Assembly: GCA_964016885.1 (NCBI GenBank)
Contig: OZ024740.1
Location: 98,394,001 to 98,458,000, forward strand
Length of the DNA: 64,000 nucleotides
Direction of reading: 5' to 3'
DNA from: Eledone cirrhosa
Lineage: Eukaryota
Below are positions 24,573 to 40,545 of this stretch, piece after piece. Below the pieces are notes generated by a model, which worked only from the letters and a program-made list of their open reading frames with translations, was not told where the DNA came from and made no database searches. Position 1 is the stretch's first letter, and each line of letters opens with the position of its first letter. The translations under genes were made by a program, and so were the position numbers.

Positions 24573-25925
24573 TTAGGTAAGGCGGGTCTTCTCTATTACT
24601 GAGTGCCGCCAAAGATCTCGGTCCAGTGACATTGCCTGGGAGAGGTGTAAGTGTGTGAGGTCGGAGTTTATCAGGTTGACCCAGGTTTTTCTGGGTCTGC
24701 CTACTCCGTGGCTACCGTTTATCTTTATTGCCCTGCACTTTTTTATACAGCTGTCGTCTTTCATGCGCATCACGTGACCATACCAACATAGCCTTCTCTC
24801 GAGTAAACAACATCTGATCCCTCTTATTTCTAATTTTTCCCTTAGTTCGTTTATGCTTTGCCATTCGCATATATAACTATTACACATCCAGCGGAGTATG
24901 CAAGCTTCCTTCCTCTCTAGTCTGCGTATATCCTCTGCACACCATACAGCCTGCCTTTCATTTTTAGGGAGAACCCTTTAGCGGCTAATAGTGGTATAAA
25001 CTCTCTGAACTTTTTCCATCCAGTTCTGACTCTAGCTACTGTACTTTCAGAGCACCCTCCCCCACTGCTGATTTTGTCACCCAGGTAACGGAAGCTGTCC
25101 ACTATTTCTATAGAACCCTCTGCGCAATTGAAAGAGCTAGTATTTTGTGGGCACTTGCTGCTACTTATTGCACCAGAGCACCAGCCACATGTAAAATCTA
25201 TGTTCTTAGTTAGCTTACCTATGATCCCACTACATCTTTTATGCACCCATACTTTGCATTTGGGACATAAAATGGAGTTTCTACCTACGCCTTTCCTACA
25301 CACTGAGCATAGCCATTTCCCGGAAGGGACCGGCGCCTTATTTTCTTTCCTACAAACTAGAACTTTAGTCTTAGCCAGGTCAATTTTAAGGCCTTTTGAT
25401 TCTAGGCCGTGCTTCCATGTTTGGAATTTCTTCCCTAGCTCGGCCATTGATTCAGCTATGAGCGTTAGATCATCTGCGTATAGGAGTTCCCATGGGCAGC
25501 CGGTCTTGAACTCCACTGTTATAGCCTGAAGGGCAATAATAAATAGTAGGGGGCTAAGAACAGAGCCCCGATGAACACCAACTTTTACGCTAAACTCTTC
25601 ACTATATTCGTTGTTAATTCTAACCTTGCTGACTGTTTCTTTATACATTGTTTGTATAGCTCTCACAAGCCATTCATCAACACCTAGTTTTCTAAGAGCC
25701 CACCAGATAATGGAACGGGGGACTCTGTCGAAGGCATTCTCCAAGTCGACGAAAGCTAAGTATAAGGGTTTACTTTTAGCTAGGTACTTCTCCTGTAGTT
25801 GTCGTACAATGAAAAGAGCGTCTGTGGTACTTTTGCCTGACACAAACCCGAACTGCATTTCATCTAGATCGATTCTCTCTCTGATTAGTTGCGCTATTAC
25901 TTTCTCAGTGACCATCATGACCTGG

Positions 25926-25927
<2 letters not shown>
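24573..25927 (-). mobile_element. RTE LINE RT and C-terminus (5'-truncated at a TA tract), with a Cys-rich PHD-like insertion
   Basis: QFGF, STTDALF, FVDLENAFD, GVHRGSVLSPLLF, LLYADD, FRYLG, RRLCWYGHVMR, GRPRKTW; the N-terminal part of the 367-aa ORF is microsatellite and PLE-end sequence, not real. Confidence 0.92.
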
Positions 25928-25961
<34 letters not shown>

Positions 25962-25965
<4 letters not shown>

Positions 25966-26200
25966 GGAGGTGAGTTTTAGTGTAGTACAATAAACAATGC
26001 AGATATCGGATAAGAAGCACTCTACAGTTTGTAGGACTGGAGTATACATAATATATAAGATCAAAAGATGGTTAAATGAGTTCCATGTATTTTATTATGC
26101 GCAATTCAAAAACAAATATCATCATGCAATAACATTTGTGTTTTCATCAGATAAAATAGGAGGACATGATTTGAAGGTTAAAAAACACTTGTGGATAGTG
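25962..26200 (-). mobile_element. PLE pLTR/tail, same family as 8636-8962 and 9811, with a degenerate HHR (GAAA to GAAT)
   Basis: tgtaggaggtgagtttta.tgtag.acaataaa..gcagatatcggataag matches the reverse complement of 8880-8962; tcatcagataaaata at 26144-26158. Confidence 0.8.
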
Positions 26201-31621: not shown

Positions 31622-32221
31622 GATATACATATGCATATATAAATGCATGTATGTATGCATATATATATATATATATATATTGTTATACTTGGGGAGGGTC
31701 ATATTTGCGTAATATTGCCAGAATTAATAACAGAACACACTCACTGTTTGGTTGGTTTTTCGCTTCTCGCTGTCTTTTATTATATCTGCGATCTAACTTA
31801 CTCGGTCCTCAATGTTGCCATTGACTGACCGGCGGTCAAAAATAATACAGATACAATATAGACACAAACACACATATATATATATATAGTTTACATAATT
31901 TACATAAATCTTTCGTTGCACATCTGCAACATCGTCAGTGGTGTTATATTCATTGTTCCTCCTGTTGTGTTGTATGTCTACGCCATTTTTTTTATTCAGT
32001 CTGTCTATATATTTATTTATTTATTTGCTTGTTTGTTTATCTTATTTTATTTTGTCTTCTTTGCGCATGCGTTTGCGTGTGTGTATAGTGTTATGTGTGA
32101 TGTGTGACTAGTGTGTATAGTGTTGTGTCTGCTGGGTGACTAGTGTGTGTTTATGTGCTTGTTGTTATTGTTCTTGTGTATGTATTTATTTATCTTATTT
32201 TATTTAATTTTATTTACTTAT

Positions 32222-33180
32222 TTATACTTCTCTTAGGTCAGTGTTGTTTGTTTGGGTGTTGTTGTCGTTCCACTCATTCTTTCTGTTTAGCTTTGGTCTT
32301 CTAATTTCTATTTCACTGGCCTCTCTGATTTGCCTATCTGCTGGGTCATTCCTATGTTTAGATATTATTCTAATTTCTATGTTGTCTATGTTACCGTCAT
32401 GTTGTTGTCTAGCATGTTCGTATAGTACTGACCCGTTTTTTCGTCCTTTTAGTTCACCCCAGTGTTGGTCTATCCTTTCACCTATGCTACGAGCTGTCTC
32501 ACCTATGTATGTTGTTGTCATGTTTCTGCAAGTACCCTCTGTACATCTTATGCTATAGACTACGTTTCTAGTTTTACAGTTTATCCGGGGGTTCACCTTA
32601 CATATGATACACTTCCTATTGGTACAGTGGGTTTTCTTAAAAGGGTAGGTTTTGCTGATCAGGGATTTTATGGTGGTTCCTGGCTTTTCTACCACCTTTA
32701 TTTTTAAGTGGGTCTTTCTCAGGGCCTTTCTACACTGGTTAGCTAATTTCCCTCCAGGGGTGGCGTCCACAAACATGACACTCTGATATCTCTGGTTGTC
32801 GTACCATGATGTGGCCTTCCCTATCTTATGTCTAGCCCTATCTAAGCTATTCCATGATTTGCTCCTGTATAGTGGGCAGATTCCTTTCATGTCCAGTTCT
32901 ATGAGGGTCTTATACTTTTCCATGGCTCCTTCGTATACTCTGACTCTGTCTCTTTGGTTGTAGCCAGAGAACTGCATGCGGTTGATGAAGTGTTGGATGT
33001 GTCCTTCCATTTCTGTTGGGTCGCACATGCTGGACACATTCTTCATCACTCGTACCAAATCTGCGATCAGAATATTAAACTTAGCACTACTGGACATTGC
33101 TGAGTTTTTGAGTATCAGGTATTTGGAGGCCATGGGTTTAGCATAGTGTGAGTGGAGAATTTGGGCTCTCTCGTCTATAG
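32222..33180 (-). pseudogene. Inverted duplicate of the PLE thumb + GIY-YIG region
   Basis: From IDERAQ onward the 354-aa ORF matches the C-terminus of the 663-aa ORF except for three substitutions; its N-terminal ~37 aa are antisense junction sequence. Confidence 0.9.
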
Positions 33181-33383
33181 GGAGAAAACCTGTAGAAGGC
33201 TTGGTTAGCCTCAAGCAGCGCACAAGGGATGGTGAGGTAGTGTGCCTACCCACAGATAAGTCTGGTAGGATGTCAATAGATAGCATGCCGAACTACATCG
33301 AGGCAATGCAACCCCACATCACCAACACGAGCGAAGTTGCATAACTAACACACGATGGGAGAGAAAAAATCCTCAACGCTCAC

Positions 33384-35375
33384 ATGAGGATGTGGACTGA
33401 CATCCTAAAGCCAAGCAGACGCACTGCCAACAACTTCCAGGCGTCTAACAATGGCATACCACCCTTGTATGGGCTCCGCAAAGACCACAAGACAGTCGAC
33501 GACCCGACAACAGGACCACCAACAAGACCCGTATGCGGAGCTAATATAGCTAGCAACTACAGGATCTCCTACTTCCTCTCAATGGTTATACGCCCCATAA
33601 TCAAGATGTCCCCAGATGTATGTGAAAGTACAGAGGACCTCCTCAGCAGAATCAGTGAGTGCAACAAAAACAGGAGCCTATCCAACTGCATAATAGGCAG
33701 CATGGATGTAGTGTCACTGTACCCATCCATTAACATTGATTTTTCTGTGAAAAGATGTGTGGAGATGATCATTGAGAGTGAGGTGGAGTTCTGCGACGTC
33801 GACACAGACGAACTGGGCCTCCTACTTAGACTTACCTACGACACTGACTACCTAGACAGCCATGACCTTAGATGTTTCTGCCCTAGTAGACCTATAAGAG
33901 GTAGACCCCCCACCATAACCTCAATGGCTAAAAGGACTCCCATAGGAAGGTGGATTGGGTGGACCAAAGCCATACGGACCCCCCAAAACACTGATCAGGT
34001 AAGAAAAATGGTCGCACATGCAATAGGGGCTAGTATCAAAACTACACTAAAGGGCCACATATTTAAGTTCAATGAGAAAATCTACACCCAAAATGAGGGA
34101 GCAGCCATCGGCGTCAGCATAGCTGGTGATGTTGCCAACCTTTTCATGGTATGGTGGGAAAGGAGACTTAAAGATCTCCTTAATGAAAGCTCCATAGACC
34201 TCATCATGTACTCTCGTTATGTAGATGATATCAATATAGTTATAAGAACACCCCCACTAGAGAGCACTAACAAGTTTGATTTAGAACGTAGCACGATGGA
34301 AAGCATCCAGCAGATAGCTAATTCCATACACCAGAGTATAACTGTAACTATAGACTTCCCTTCCAAACACCCTAACAATAGACTACCTGTATTAGACACA
34401 GAACTCTGGATTAACACTATAGACGAGAGAGCCCAAATTCTCCACTCACACTATGCTAAACCCATGGCCTCCAAATACCTGATACTCAAAAACTCAGCAA
34501 TGTCCAGTAGTGCTAAGTTTAATATTCTGATCGCAGATTTGGTACGAGTGATGAAGAATGTGTCCAGCATGTGCGACCCAACAGAAATGGAAGGACACAT
34601 CCAACACTTCATCAACCGCATGCAGTTCTCTGGCTACAACCAAAGAGACAGAGTCAGAGTATACGAAGGAGCCATGGAAAAGTATAAGACCCTCATAGAA
34701 CTGGACATGAAAGGAATCTGCCCACTATACAGGAGCAAATCATGGAATAGCTTAGATAGGGCTAGACATAAGATAGGGAAGGCCACATCATGGTACGACA
34801 ACCAGAGATATCAGAGTGTCATGTTTGTGGACGCCACCCCTGGAGGGAAATTAGCTAACCAGTGTAGAAAGGCCCTGAGAAAGACCCACTTAAAAATAAA
34901 GGTGGTAGAAAAGCCAGGAACCACCATAAAATCCCTGATCAGCAAAACCTACCCTTTTAAGAAAACCCACTGTACCAATAGGAAGTGTATCATATGTAAG
35001 GTGAACCCCCGGATAAACTGTAAAACTAGAAACGTAGTCTATAGCATAAGATGTACAGAGGGTACTTGCAGAAACATGACAACAACATACATAGGTGAGA
35101 CAGCTCGTAGCATAGGTGAAAGGATACACCAACACTGGGGGGAACTAAAAGGACGAAAAAACGGGTCAGTACTATACGAACATGCTAGACAACAACATGA
35201 CGGTAACATACACAACATAGAAATTAGAATAATATCTAAACATAGGAATGACCCAGCAGATAGGCAAATCAGAGAGGCCAGTGAAATAGAAATTAGAAGA
35301 CCAAAGCTAAACAGAAAGAATGAGTGGAACAACAACAACACCCAAACAAACAACACTGACCTAAGAGAAGTATAA
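33384..35375 (+). CDS. PLE reverse transcriptase + GIY-YIG endonuclease (663 aa; 5'-truncated)
   Basis: LYGLRKDHK, TRPVC, SMDVVSLYPSI, QNEGAAIG, RYVDD, LPVLD, CxxC linker, NVVYSIRC...YIGET.RS..ER..QH, REA..I..LN; the same frame continues upstream to 33180 (TDKSG motif) through one TAA at 33342. Confidence 0.93.
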   Translation: MRMWTDILKPSRRTANNFQASNNGIPPLYGLRKDHKTVDDPTTGPPTRPVCGANIASNYRISYFLSMVIRPIIKMSPDVCESTEDLLSRISECNKNRSLSNCIIGSMDVVSLYPSINIDFSVKRCVEMIIESEVEFCDVDTDELGLLLRLTYDTDYLDSHDLRCFCPSRPIRGRPPTITSMAKRTPIGRWIGWTKAIRTPQNTDQVRKMVAHAIGASIKTTLKGHIFKFNEKIYTQNEGAAIGVSIAGDVANLFMVWWERRLKDLLNESSIDLIMYSRYVDDINIVIRTPPLESTNKFDLERSTMESIQQIANSIHQSITVTIDFPSKHPNNRLPVLDTELWINTIDERAQILHSHYAKPMASKYLILKNSAMSSSAKFNILIADLVRVMKNVSSMCDPTEMEGHIQHFINRMQFSGYNQRDRVRVYEGAMEKYKTLIELDMKGICPLYRSKSWNSLDRARHKIGKATSWYDNQRYQSVMFVDATPGGKLANQCRKALRKTHLKIKVVEKPGTTIKSLISKTYPFKKTHCTNRKCIICKVNPRINCKTRNVVYSIRCTEGTCRNMTTTYIGETARSIGERIHQHWGELKGRKNGSVLYEHARQQHDGNIHNIEIRIISKHRNDPADRQIREASEIEIRRPKLNRKNEWNNNNTQTNNTDLREV

Positions 35376-35648
35376 ATAAGTAAATAAAATTAAATAAAAT
35401 AAGATAAATAAATACATACACAAGAACAATAACAACAAGCACATAAACACACACTAGTCACCCAGCAGACACAACACTATACACACTAGTCACACATCAC
35501 ACATAACACTATACACACACGCAAACGCATGCGCAAAGAAGACAAAATAAAATAAGATAAACAAACAAGCAAATAAATAAATAAATATATAGACAGACTG
35601 AATAAAAAAAAATGGCGTAGACATACAACACAACAGGAGGAACAATGA

Positions 35649-35705
35649 ATATGACACCACTGACGATGTTGCAGATGTGCAACGAAAGATTTATGTAAAT
35701 TATGT
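35649..35705 (+). ncRNA. Hammerhead motif in the PLE 3' pLTR (mirror copy at 31893-31949, minus)
   Basis: CA-CTGACGA(35660)-T-GTTGCA(GATG)TGCAAC-GAAA-GAT-TTA^TG; perfect 6-bp stem II, weak stems I and III. Confidence 0.6.
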
Positions 35706-35959
35706 AAACTATATATATATATATATGTGTTTGTGTCTATATTGTATCTGTATTATTTTTGACCGCCGGTCAGTCAATGGCAACATTGAGGACCGAGTAA
35801 GTTAGATCGCAGATATAATAAAAGACAGCGAGAAGCGAAAAACCAACCAAACAGTGAGTGTGTTCTGTTATTAATTCTGGCAATATTACGCAAATATGAC
35901 CCTCCCCAAGTATAACAATATCTGTTTCGACACACGATTTCATATAAAAAACCCCGCAA

Positions 35960-36042
<83 letters not shown>

Positions 36043-36108
36043 GAAGAGAGAAGAAACATTTAGATATAATTAGTAATAAAATGTATCATACCTAAACTGT
36101 TCCTAAAT

Positions 36109-36196
36109 TCCTCGACTACGTAGTTTCGTGGCATAAACAAAAACAATATATCAAAGATATAGAGTCCTTGCGAGGTCTGCCGACTTATCAAGAGGA
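36109..36196 (-). ncRNA. Type I hammerhead ribozyme, U3-A8 variant (copy 1 of 5)
   Basis: Minus strand: TCCTC-TTGATAA-GT(C)GGCA...TGCCAC-GAAAC-TACGTA-GTC^GAGGA. Confidence 0.8.
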
Positions 36197-36699
36197 TACC
36201 TCATTTTACTAGTCTCAAGAACGCGTCTACACGACGTGAGAAAGAATCCCAAAAGGCGGAGGGGGAGATAGTCACGCGATATAACGGTCGAGAAACAGAG
36301 CAAAGCCTCTTATAACCACGAAGAATATACCACGGAGGCGGAGGGGGTATTCATATCGAGGCCGTAGAAGAGGTAGTGAAGGAGGCGAGAAGTATGAGTA
36401 ATGGAAGCTTTCCAGTTGTCCCCACACTTCAAAGATTGCTCGACCAGAGGGAGTTATTAATACATTTAGAAACACACAGATACATGCGGACACACACATA
36501 TATACATGAATGCATCCGCACCCAACTGTGAGTTAAGGGTGCCAACTTCACCGATGTTGCTCAATGAATGACTGGGACAGACCAATTCAGTTTGAACCAG
36601 ACTGAACCAGTATCAGAGTTAAAAATACATTATGAAGAGAGAAGAAACATTTAGATATAATTAGTAATAAAATGTATCATACCTAAACTGTTCCTAAAT

Positions 36700-36787
36700 T
36701 CCTCGACTACGTAGTTTCGTGGCATAAACAAAAACAATATATCAAAGATATAGTGTCCTTGCGAGGTCTGCCGACTTATCAAGAGGA
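36700..36787 (-). ncRNA. Type I hammerhead ribozyme, U3-A8 variant (copy 2)
   Basis: Core and stems identical to copy 1, offset +591. Confidence 0.8.
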
Positions 36788-37290
36788 TACCTCATTTTAC
36801 TAGTCTCAAGAACGCGTCTACACGACGTGAGAAAGAATCCCAAAAGGCGGAGGGGGAGATAGTCACGCGATATAACGGTCGAGAAACAGAGCAAAGCCTC
36901 TTATAACCACGAAGAAAATACCACGGAGGCGGAGGGGGTATTCATATCGAGGCCGTAGAAGAGGTAGTGAAGGAGGCGAGAAGTATGAGTAATGGAAGCT
37001 TTCCAGTTGTCCCCACACTTCAAAGATTGCTCGACCAGAGGGAGTTATTAATACATTTAGAAACACACAGATACATGCGGACACACACATATATACATGA
37101 ATGCATCCGCACCCAACTGTGAGTTAAGGGTGCCAACTTCACCGATGTTGCTCAATGAATGACTGGGACAGACCAATTCAGTTTGAACCAGACTGAACCA
37201 GTATCAGAGTTAAAAATACATTATGAAGAGAGAAGAAACATTTAGATATAATTAGTAATAAAATGTATCATACCTAAACTGTTCCTAAAT

Positions 37291-37378
37291 TCCTCGACTA
37301 CGTAGTTTCGTGGCATAAACAAAAACAATATATCAAAGATATAGAGTCCTTGCGAGGTCTGCCGACTTATCAAGAGGA
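37291..37378 (-). ncRNA. Type I hammerhead ribozyme, U3-A8 variant (copy 3)
   Basis: Core and stems identical to copy 1, offset +1182. Confidence 0.8.
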
Positions 37379-37881
37379 TACCTCATTTTACTAGTCTCAA
37401 GAACGCGTCTACACGACGTGAGAAAGAATCCCAAAAGGCGGAGGGGGAGATAGTCACGCGATATAACGGTCGAGAAACAGAGCAAAGCCTCTTATAACCA
37501 CGAAGAAAATACCACGGAGGCGGAGGGGGTATTCATATCGAGGCCGTAGAAGAGGTAGTGAAGGAGGCGAGAAGTATGAGTAATGGAAGCTTTCCAGTTG
37601 TCCCCACACTTCAAAGATTGCTCGACCAGAGGGAGTTATTAATACATTTAGAAACACACAGATACATGCGGACACACACATATATACATGAATGCATCCG
37701 CACCCAACTGTGAGTTAAGGGTGCCAACTTCACCGATGTTGCTCAATGAATGACTGGGACAGACCAATTCAGTTTGAACCAGACTGAACCAGTATCAGAG
37801 TTAAAAATACATTATGAAGAGAGAAGAAACATTTAGATATAATTAGTAATAAAATGTATCATACCTAAACTGTTCCTAAAT

Positions 37882-37969
37882 TCCTCGACTACGTAGTTTC
37901 GTGGCATAAACAAAAACAATATATCAAAGATATAGTGTCCTTGCGAGGTCTGCCGACTTATCAAGAGGA
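37882..37969 (-). ncRNA. Type I hammerhead ribozyme, U3-A8 variant (copy 4)
   Basis: Core and stems identical to copy 1, offset +1773. Confidence 0.8.
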
Positions 37970-38472
37970 TACCTCATTTTACTAGTCTCAAGAACGCGTC
38001 TACACGACGTGAGAAAGAATCCCAAAAGGCGGAGGGGGAGATAGTCACGCGATATAACGGTCGAGAAACAGAGCAAAGCCTCTTATAACCACGAAGAAAA
38101 TACCACGGAGGCGGAGGGGGTATTCATATCGAGGCCGTAGAAGAGGTAGTGAAGGAGGCGAGAAGTATGAGTAATGGAAGCTTTCCAGTTGTCCCCACAC
38201 TTCAAAGATTGCTCGACCAGAGGGAGTTATTAATACATTTAGAAACACACAGATACATGCGGACACACACATATATACATGAATGCATCCGCACCCAACT
38301 GTGAGTTAAGGGTGCCAACTTCACCGATGTTGCTCAATGAATGACTGGGACAGACCAATTCAGTTTGAACCAGACTGAACCAGTATCAGAGTTAAAAATA
38401 CATTATGAAGAGAGAAGAAACATTTAGATATAATTAATAATAAAATGTATCATACCTAAACTGTTCCTAAAT

Positions 38473-38560
38473 TCCTCGACTACGTAGTTTCGTGGCATAA
38501 ACAAAAACAATATATCAAAGATATAGAGTCCTTGCGAGGTCTGCCGACTTATCAAGAGGA
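38473..38560 (-). ncRNA. Type I hammerhead ribozyme, U3-A8 variant (copy 5)
   Basis: Core and stems identical to copy 1, offset +2364. Confidence 0.8.
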
Positions 38561-38604
38561 TACCTCATTTTACTAGTCTCAAGAACGCGTCTACACGACG
38601 TGAG

Positions 38605-38796
38605 AATGTTTCTTCTCTCTTCATAATGTATTTTTAACTCTGATACTGGTTCAGTCTGGTTCAAACTGAATTGGTCTGTCCCAGTCATTCATTGAGCAAC
38701 ATCGGTGAAGTTGGCACCCTTAACTCACAGTTGGGTGCGGATGCATTCATGTATATATGTGTGTGTCCGCATGTATCTGTGTGTTTCTAAATGTAT
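38605..38796 (+). repeat. Inverted ~190-bp segment of the 591-bp unit capping the array
   Basis: aatgtttcttctctcttcataatgtatttttaactc...tgtttctaaatgtat is the reverse complement of unit sequence ~36460-36651. Confidence 0.93.
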
Positions 38797-38809
38797 ATAT
38801 ATATATATG

Positions 38810-38890
<81 letters not shown>

Positions 38891-39995
38891 TTAGGGTAAA
38901 TATTGATGCAATTCAATTCAAGTACTCAACGTCCTTTTTCCACATAGGAGTGATGGAGTAAATATCGAATAAGGAAAAGCGAAGTACTTTCAGATGTTCA
39001 AGTCCTTTAATAATAATGCTGTGATATATATTTCAATGACGATACTGGCCACACTGTTCTGTGTGCGAGTGTCATGACATCATCAGACAGCTTGTTACAT
39101 AATAAGGTTAGGTTTCCGAGGCAATCCAAATTGAATCGACATGGGAACGGACGAAGTGTGTGCTTTTGGGTTCTTCATCCGTTCCCCAGTGAGTACCAAT
39201 TCACCCCCACCGGTCTGCGCAGGCGCATGTCCGAAGGAAGTTGACCATTAGCTACCGCAGATTTCAACGAAATTCGCTTAGCCACTTCACCCTCTCAGCC
39301 AAACAATGACCCACTTAGGCCTGTACCATAGTTTACTGCTACCCATTCCGACTGTGGCAGTCAGCCGAAAGCCAAAGGGGATGGGAGAGTGTTAGTTTTT
39401 ACAGGTCACATACTACCTCTCACCAAGCGTGGACAGTACGACTGACCATCAACTCCTAAGAGAAAATAAACTTTAATTCTATGTATCATGGTTTTACATT
39501 GGAAATTATGAGTGAGAGTTGGAAATAAAATTAAAATCCTAAATCAAATATCAGAAATTATAAATTAGACAATTAAAAAATTAACAATTAGAAATTAAAA
39601 AACACTGGACGGACATAATAGCAACTTTCGGCAGGATAAATACGCGGAAACAAAAACTAAGATAAACCCCTATTTTCCTGCAACAGATCGCATTTGAACA
39701 GAAGCACCCTCTGGCTTTCGGCTGACTGCCACAGTCGGGATGGGTAGCAGTAAACTATGGTACAAGCCCAAGTGGGTCATTGTTTGGCTGAGAGGGTGAA
39801 GTGGCTAAGCGAATTTCGTTGAAATCTGCGGTAGCTAATGGTCAACTTTCTTCGGACATACGCCTGCGCAGACCAGTGGGGGGTGAATTGGTACTTACAG
39901 GGGAACGGATGAAGAACCCAAAAGCACACACTTCGTCCGTTCCCATGTCGATTCAATTTGGATTGCCTCGGAAACATAACCTGACTATGTAACAA

Positions 39996-40069
39996 GCTGT
40001 CTGATGATGTCACGACACTCGCACACAGAACAGTGTGGCCAGTGTCGTCATTGAAATATATATCACAGC
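39996..40069 (+). ncRNA. Type I hammerhead ribozyme motif (mirror copy 39018-39091, minus)
   Basis: GCTGT-CTGATGA-TG..ACGACACT..CACAC(AGAACA)GTGTG..AGTGTCGT-CATT-GAAAT-ATAT-ATC^ACAGC; 5-bp stem I, palindromic stem III, AUC triplet. Confidence 0.75.
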
Positions 40070-40089
40070 ATTATTATTAAAGGACTTGA

Positions 40090-40274
40090 GGGCGGTGGAT
40101 TGGCAGTATCGGTGGAGGGTCGGACGCCATGCTTTCCAGCATAGTTACGTCCCTTTACGATCTGAGTTCAAATCCTGCCGAGGTTGACTTTGCCTTTCAT
40201 CCTTACGGGGTCGATAAAATAAAGTACCAGTAATGTACTGGGTAATTGCTGGCCTTGTGCCAAAAGTAGAAACA
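40090..40274 (+). mobile_element. SINE family A (first of a tandem pair)
   Basis: Full length; 20-bp TSD attattattaaaggacttga at 40070 and 40275. Confidence 0.95.
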
Positions 40275-40294
40275 ATTATTATTAAAGGACTTGA

Positions 40295-40479
40295 GGGCGG
40301 TGGATTGGCAGTATCGGTAGAGGGTCGGACGCCATGCTTTCCAGCATAGTTACGTCCCTTTACGATCTGAGTTCAAATCCCGCCGAGGTTGATTTTGCCT
40401 CTCATCCCTACGGGGTCGATGGAATAAAGTACCAGTAATGCACTGGGTATGTGCTGGCCTTGTGCCTAACGTAGAAACA
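40295..40479 (+). mobile_element. SINE family A (second of a tandem pair)
   Basis: Full length; same TSD at 40275 and 40480. Confidence 0.95.
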
Positions 40480-40545
40480 ATTATTATTAAAGGACTTGAA
40501 CATCTGAAACTACTTCGCTTTTCCTTATTCTATATATATATATAT

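What the first reader, a model, noticed from the sequence alone, without database searches (positions are those of the whole stretch)
36038..38796. 591-bp tandem array with five hammerhead ribozymes: candidate retrozyme / circular-RNA system beside a young Penelope element
Seen: 4.35 nearly identical non-coding 591-bp units. Each has on the minus strand a complete type I hammerhead (5-bp stem I TCCTC/GAGGA, stem II GT-GGCA/TGCC-AC, GAAAC, 10-nt palindromic stem III ACTACGTAGT, GUC triplet). The array lies between two (TA)n tracts and is capped by an inverted 190-bp piece of the unit, the same architecture as the adjacent PLE. Known: tandem HHR repeats in animals (non-LTR retrozymes, newt satellite 2, schistosome Sm-alpha) self-cleave into monomers that can circularise and are thought to be mobilised by PLE RTs; palindromic stem III allows dimeric cleavage. 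Inference: a minus-strand transcript would be cut into exact 591-nt monomers, and the array is a rolling-circle reverse transcript of such a circle. The unit is longer than the few-hundred-nt units I recall for animal retrozymes and shows no visible homology to the neighbouring PLE pLTR.
Basis: partly seen in the sequence, partly recalled or inferred. Interest (0 to 1): 0.92.

Follow-up and report, generated by a model that had tools for sequence, protein, structure and literature searches.

The report
Ribozyme repeat hijacking Penelope retrotransposons
This is one of thousands of copies of a protein-free, 591-base repeat whose units each carry a predicted self-cutting RNA and whose ends follow the same two-site rule as this genome's Penelope jumping genes, so it is likely copied by their enzyme from an RNA circle, which makes a long-proposed mechanism testable.

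Summary
Array confirmed: 4.35 units of 591 bp, five type I hammerheads with a U3-A8 core that Rfam misses. The family is genome-wide (7,681 exact ribozyme 19-mers).

Across 84 loci, 127 of 133 arms have their 3' end at one of two fixed sites, A or B, 165 nt apart, mostly joined to (TA)n; 5' ends scatter. Of 46 two-armed insertions, 42 use A on one arm and B on the other, none uses the same site twice, and 4 are irregular. Two autonomous Penelope-like (PLE) families obey the same rule (13 of 13, 11 of 11).

5' ends peak at the predicted cleavage bond (18 independent events against 3-6 at four control positions), a likely record of in vivo cleavage.

No unit-ORF fusion, no partner PLE and no RNA data were found. 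The 591-bp length is not unusual. The scan earlier noted PLE-type ends on a ribozyme-free tandem in another genome.

Verdict: a non-LTR retrozyme, a known kind, with unusually direct genomic evidence of PLE mobilisation.

The parts
36038..38606 (-). Long arm: 4.35 tandem 591-bp units in RNA sense; 3' end at priming site A (unit position 76-80), 5' end at unit position 463
38605..38796 (+). Short inverted arm (unit positions 54-245); 3' end at priming site B; 2-bp overlap with the long arm
36109..36196 (-). Type I hammerhead 1 (U3-A8 core, 44-nt loop II insert, palindromic stem III); predicted cut between 36114 and 36113
36700..36787 (-). Hammerhead 2; predicted cut 36705/36704 (36704 = unit position 1)
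37291..37378 (-). Hammerhead 3
37882..37969 (-). Hammerhead 4
38473..38560 (-). Hammerhead 5
36460..36624 (-). 165-nt 'tail' between priming site A (36625) and site B (36460), shown for one internal unit
35963..36037 (.). (TA)n tract shared by the retrozyme's site-A end and the PLE's long end
38797..38889 (.). (TA)n tract joined to the site-B end
31677..35963 (+). Separate neighbour: 5'-truncated two-armed PLE (ORF piece 33345-35375, own hammerhead core at 35660-35687, short end at left, long end at right); shows the same end rule, no convincing homology to the unit

Best explanation
The array is one insertion of a young, genome-wide, protein-free retrozyme family whose 591-nt RNA is predicted to cut itself at each hammerhead, likely closes into a circle, and is likely copied into (TA)n tracts by the reverse transcriptase-endonuclease of a Penelope-like element. 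Shown: dispersal, two fixed 3' ends, strict A/B arm pairing, the same pairing in PLEs, and a peak of 5' ends at the predicted cut. Inferred: the enzyme (probably a dimer) nicks both strands of (TA)n and primes one cDNA at site A and the other at site B on the same RNA. Each cDNA runs a variable distance, up to 7.2 rounds, and the two are joined 5' to 5', so tandem arrays are made at insertion. The window's alternating variant suggests a two-unit template for this copy.
For:: 127 of 133 arm 3' ends at A (66) or B (61); 124 of 133 followed by TA runs; 42 of 46 two-armed insertions A+B, 0 A+A or B+B, 4 irregular; 22 of 25 A+B in the 47 loci picked by genome position alone; 5' ends not different from uniform (KS p 0.06 and 0.16). 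PLE families of about 1,210 and 784 aa show one short and one long end in 13 of 13 and 11 of 11 two-armed copies. against 58, 59, 62, 63: 21 hits (18 independent) with the 5' end exactly at the cut, against 6, 6, 4, 3 at control positions (binomial p 9e-5); locus-private variants in every unit of both arms (L072, L110 with 3 variants in 7-8 copies, L111); an older subfamily differs at 101 of 591 columns but at 0 of 44 ribozyme and 0 of 28 site-A columns; it keeps a unit of about 591 bp and A+B pairing in 6 of 6 callable pairs, one of which may involve a young copy in L269; monomer fold z = -6.76; the active fold is 2.3 kcal/mol above the local minimum. PMC11167929: a PLE protein nicks and extends both strands from two internal RNA start sites that define the tail.
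Against: No RNA evidence could be had. No partner PLE was identified: local alignments of the unit to five UTR stretches from four PLE families gave only low-complexity matches. The tail is 165 nt against 39-57 nt in this genome's PLEs. The ribozyme stems are invariant, so there is no covariation (0 two-sided changes in 20 copies). Rfam does not detect the motif. Eight of nine predicted Xenopus retrozymes did not cleave in vitro, and in PMC11167929 unprocessed RNA was the main substrate. Variants shared by only some units (window, L052, L059, L063, L094) do not fit a pure monomer circle. Only about 1% of arms (rough estimate) end at the cut.
Confidence: 0.7

Rival explanations
1. Same family and same PLE enzyme, but the template is a linear, mostly uncleaved multimeric read-through transcript of existing arrays; circles are absent or irrelevant.
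For: In PMC11167929 ribozyme mutants did not affect insertion in vitro. Most cDNAs pass through the cut site. The sense strand has no AATAAA, so read-through is plausible. Variants shared by some units of both arms (L052, L059, L063) fit a multimeric template. A homogeneous source array would also give variants shared by all units.
Against: Without a monomer bottleneck, new variants should stay in single unit positions and arrays should shorten with each 5'-truncated generation; instead 35 variant calls are fixed across all units of a locus, 9 of them private, and arms reach 7.2 units. 5' ends peak at the cut, and the ribozyme is conserved between subfamilies.
Confidence: 0.2
2. The unit is the pseudo-LTR or 3' end of an autonomous PLE not yet found, or monomers inserted first and arrays grew later by unequal crossover (the satellite model in the 2026 preprint).
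For: 24 of 57 Xenopus retrozyme families were homologous to known elements, nearly all PLEs, at their termini. Only about 135 of an estimated 3,700 loci were inspected, and only four PLE families were compared.
Against: In the 84 mapped loci the unit is not joined to an ORF; PLE pieces nearby are separate insertions. No match of the unit to 121 proteins (120 database relatives of the PLE protein plus the local one). Both arms are often multimeric with fractional copy numbers and identical units at unlinked loci (median pairwise identity 1.0 among 33 top-hit monomers), which independent local expansion would not give.
Confidence: 0.08
3. Assembly artefact or an inert satellite with a chance hammerhead-like motif.
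For: Perfect tandem and inverted repeats are hard to assemble; Rfam gives no hit.
Against: Thousands of copies on many contigs; two public runs hold 621- and 620-nt contigs covering one full unit plus about 30 nt, as a repeating unit would give, and another holds it at very high depth (one may be the window's own sample); fixed ends, arm rule and cut-site peak.
Confidence: 0.02

Closest known systems
Animal non-LTR retrozymes (PMC7229834; bioRxiv 10.64898/2026.07.22.740005)
   Same: Dispersed tandem non-coding units, one type I hammerhead each, GC under 50%, stable predicted fold, short stem III with palindromic loop, co-occurrence with PLEs; length within the 51-972 bp range.
   Different: U3-A8 core and 44-nt loop II insert; no pLTR homologue found. 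The sections read do not describe two fixed 3' ends, A/B arm pairing or cut-site 5' ends. RNA and cleavage are untested here.
EN+ Penelope-like elements and their 'tail' (PMC8557442; Poseidon_Ac in PMC11167929)
   Same: Partial tandems, inverted 5'-truncated arm, microsatellite targets, two 3' ends with the tail at one end only.
   Different: No ORF; tail 165 nt instead of 30-40 nt; site sequences unlike those of the neighbouring PLE.
Non-autonomous Chlamys elements such as MRC1 (passage in PMC8557442)
   Same: Non-autonomous PLE-type elements with multicopy head-to-tail insertions.
   Different: Those generally resemble an autonomous family at the 3' end, and their clade is reported to lack canonical hammerheads; this unit has a hammerhead and no matched partner.
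U3-A8 hammerhead variant of Schistosoma PLEs (PMC4209133)
   Same: Same compensated core pair.
   Different: There mostly single, heterogeneous motifs; here a uniform high-copy tandem family.

Membership tests
non-LTR retrozyme | Tandem units, each with a type I hammerhead | tested here: met
non-LTR retrozyme | No protein coding | tested here: met
   Longest ATG ORF 75 aa, absent from 4 of 4 older monomers; no tblastn hit with 121 proteins
non-LTR retrozyme | Dispersed, mobile copies | tested here: met
non-LTR retrozyme | Unit size and GC under 50% | tested here: met
   591 bp, about 40% GC; above the 150-450 bp of PMC7229834, inside the 51-972 bp of the 2026 preprint
non-LTR retrozyme | Self-cleavage of the RNA | tested here: inconclusive
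   Indirect only: 18 independent 5' ends at the predicted bond against 3-6 at controls; no assay
non-LTR retrozyme | Expressed as circular RNA | not testable with these tools
   No RNA run available
non-LTR retrozyme | No LTR, PBS or PPT; longer target-site duplications | tested here: inconclusive
   No LTR layout seen in 84 loci; PBS and PPT not searched; duplications unreadable inside (TA)n
type I hammerhead ribozyme | Core nucleotides and three stems | tested here: met
   U3-A8 variant core; 98.9% of cells paired in 20 copies, no covariation; active fold +2.3 kcal/mol
type I hammerhead ribozyme | Match to an Rfam hammerhead model | tested here: not met
   probably due to the variant core and long loop II (inference)
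type I hammerhead ribozyme | Loop I-loop II tertiary contact | not tested
   none
PLE-mobilised element | Two 3' ends with a tail at one end only; inverted 5'-truncated arm; microsatellite target | tested here: met
PLE pseudo-LTR | Homology or junction to an autonomous RT-GIY-YIG element | tested here: not met
   limited to four PLE families and about 135 loci

The most novel reading that the evidence does not exclude
The family is an RNA-circle parasite that evolved its own pair of PLE priming sites, 165 nt apart and unrelated to any pLTR. Its thousands of insertions record an asymmetric PLE mechanism: one enzyme dimer primes both target strands at two different sites of one circular RNA and rolls around it. 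The rare cDNAs that stop at the ribozyme bond are a fossil readout of in vivo cleavage.
Probability: 0.4. Interest if true: 0.8.

Novelty: new variant of a known kind. Interest (0 to 1): 0.62.

Why it matters
That PLEs mobilise animal retrozymes through RNA circles has been argued from co-occurrence and sequence likeness; a 2026 preprint also leaves room for local satellite growth. This family supplies mechanistic marks: PLE-type fixed ends, a strict two-site rule, arrays apparently made at insertion, and a cut-site footprint. It also gives a 591-nt substrate and two young candidate enzymes for testing rolling-circle target-primed reverse transcription and the origin of PLE inverted arms.

Tried and rejected
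Rfam: no hammerhead hit.

RNA: no RNA holder listed; the four runs laid are contigs and show presence only. This is no evidence on expression.

Idea that sites A and B pair with each other (suggested by RNAalifold): rejected, since pairing probability is high in only 2 of 25 natural circular monomers.

Neighbouring PLE as partner: not supported. The best match is a 42-nt low-complexity stretch (score 41 against shuffle maximum 40). One other UTR stretch beat its shuffles only through a TA/TG repeat. A 14-nt likeness between site B and the short end of the 784-aa PLE is AT-rich and only a hint. Both PLE families are as young as the retrozyme (median pairwise 99.7%), so age does not choose between them.

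L1-type twin priming: unlikely, since 5' ends fall in the A or B windows in only 3 of 133 arms.

75-aa ORF: not conserved.

the pattern gap was too short and returned only deletion variants; the structure string was out of register; redone.

Six loci in the older set gave no callable second end or none at all among many single calls; only 6 pairs of 30 loci were callable.

Full report
OBSERVATION. The 591-bp period holds from 36038 to 38606, with few internal differences. An inverted 192-bp piece follows to 38796, and (TA)n tracts flank the whole. Each unit has a minus-strand hammerhead. Its core reads U3-U-G-A-U-A8-A, a compensated variant reported in Schistosoma PLEs (PMC4209133, passages seen). 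Loop II holds a 44-nt insert. Rfam finds no hammerhead. The active fold is 2.3 kcal/mol above the local minimum, and the stem III palindrome could form a -14.3 kcal/mol duplex. In 20 copies 98.9% of stem cells pair, but nothing covaries. The monomer folds far better than shuffles (z -6.76, 0 of 100). I number the unit from the base after the predicted cut (36704 = 1).

FAMILY. A DNA search gave 969 candidates, 40 scored, on many contigs at 99%. The 3' ribozyme 19-mer occurs 7,681 times and the 5' one 6,311 times, controls 0. The first 100 listed hits fell by hand into 48 clusters, which gives a rough 3,700 loci. I mapped 37 top-hit loci, including the window, and 47 position-ordered loci. Host: likely an octopod, because the best database relative of the neighbouring PLE protein is from Octopus vulgaris at 69%.

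FIXED ENDS. Of 133 arms, 66 end at site A (72-86), 61 at site B (240-254) and 6 elsewhere; 124 are followed by TA runs. 5' ends are not distinguishable from uniform (p 0.06, 0.16). Of 46 two-armed insertions, 42 are A+B, none is A+A or B+B, and 4 have an irregular end (L065, L075, L094, L102). Unpaired arms use A (21) or B (18), with 2 other. In the window the long arm ends at A and the 'cap' at B. An older subfamily, about 80% identical, keeps a 585-595-bp unit and gave A+B in 6 of 6 callable pairs among 30 loci; L269 also holds a young copy. It differs from the window unit at 101 of 591 columns, but at 0 of 25 ribozyme columns not used as search anchor (p 0.006), 0 of 28 at site A and 3 of 31 at site B (6 monomers).

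PLE COMPARISON. The neighbour is a truncated copy of a young family with a roughly 1,210-aa ORF and a 4,117-bp tandem unit. It has a short and a long 3' end 43-57 nt apart. A 784-aa family has ends about 39 nt apart. Two-armed copies pair short with long in 13 of 13 and 11 of 11 cases. [quoted passage not shown] That paper saw no strand difference in start site, whereas the genomic pairing here is strict. The unit shows no convincing homology to four PLE families, no junction to an ORF in the 84 mapped loci (PLE pieces in 134 loci screened, appear to be separate insertions), and no match to 121 proteins. The partner is unidentified, and adjacency reflects shared (TA)n targeting.

CUT-SITE FOOTPRINT. 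I counted genome-wide junctions where an arm's 5' end falls at a given base, requiring the three upstream letters all to differ from the unit. Position 1 gave 21 hits; all 21 are true 5' ends, and four share one duplicated junction, leaving 18 events. Controls at positions 578, 17, 3 and 589 gave 6, 6, 4 and 3 (not inspected one by one); p = 9e-5. The control patterns differ somewhat in degeneracy and CpG content, but the two nearest share most of the test pattern. Inference: some templates were linear RNAs cut at the predicted bond. A rough estimate is about 1% of arms, so most templates were ligated or uncut there.

TEMPLATE. In loci with three or more copies of a column, 35 variant calls were in all units (9 private to a locus, five of these across both arms in L072, L110 and L111), 47 in one unit, and 10 in some. 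This fits copying of one monomer many times, but a homogeneous linear multimer would look alike. The window's T/A alternation at position 542 suggests a two-unit template; partial sharing in L052, L059, L063 and L094 fits multimers or gene conversion; four of the ten 'some' calls come from a duplicated insertion (L079). No RNA run was available. Circularity is therefore inferred from the known retrozyme biology in PMC7229834 (parts 2-4 of 6 read), which proposes this cycle and names PLEs as candidates.

KNOWN VERSUS NEW. It works like, and meets the testable criteria of, a non-LTR retrozyme. The 2026 preprint (parts 1-3 of 5) reports units of 51-972 bp, pLTR relatedness, cleavage in only 1 of 9 tested elements, and suggests local amplification. 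Searches listed no paper that, by title, abstract start or the sections read, describes fixed double priming sites, arm pairing or cut-site 5' ends in a retrozyme. The library lacks most subscription papers and I read no supplements, which may bear on this. Newt satellite 2 was seen only through PMC7229834; Sm-alpha is recalled, not checked.

VERDICT. Real, and a new variant of a known kind. Interest 0.62, for the mechanistic record rather than the element class.

Noticed in passing
L073:6492-7732: A second tandem with 310-bp period and a canonical-core type I hammerhead in each of five units; likely another retrozyme family.
   Followed up: no
L073:920(-), L083:1102(+) and many flanks: Dozens of other hammerhead-like motifs in flanking DNA, including two more U3-A8 cores; the genome appears rich in such families.
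   Followed up: no
L099:6450-7563: Tandem of short two-armed pieces made only of the neighbouring PLE family's 3' end.
   Followed up: no
L079:1975-5828: A whole two-armed retrozyme insertion duplicated 2.55 kb apart.
   Followed up: partly
L235:1280-1604: Both arms start exactly at the predicted cut (1-247 and 1-80), as expected from a single cleaved linear monomer.
   Followed up: partly
window 35660-35730: The neighbouring PLE's hammerhead has a partly duplicated stem III segment compared with the copy in L151.
   Followed up: no
window 38998-40089 and 40070-40499: A 383-bp inverted repeat pair and a tandem of a dispersed repeat of about 200 bp that looks like a tRNA-derived SINE (label recalled, not tested).
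   Followed up: no
window 24917-26071 (-): A separate reverse transcriptase ORF with a weak PHD-finger match.
   Followed up: no
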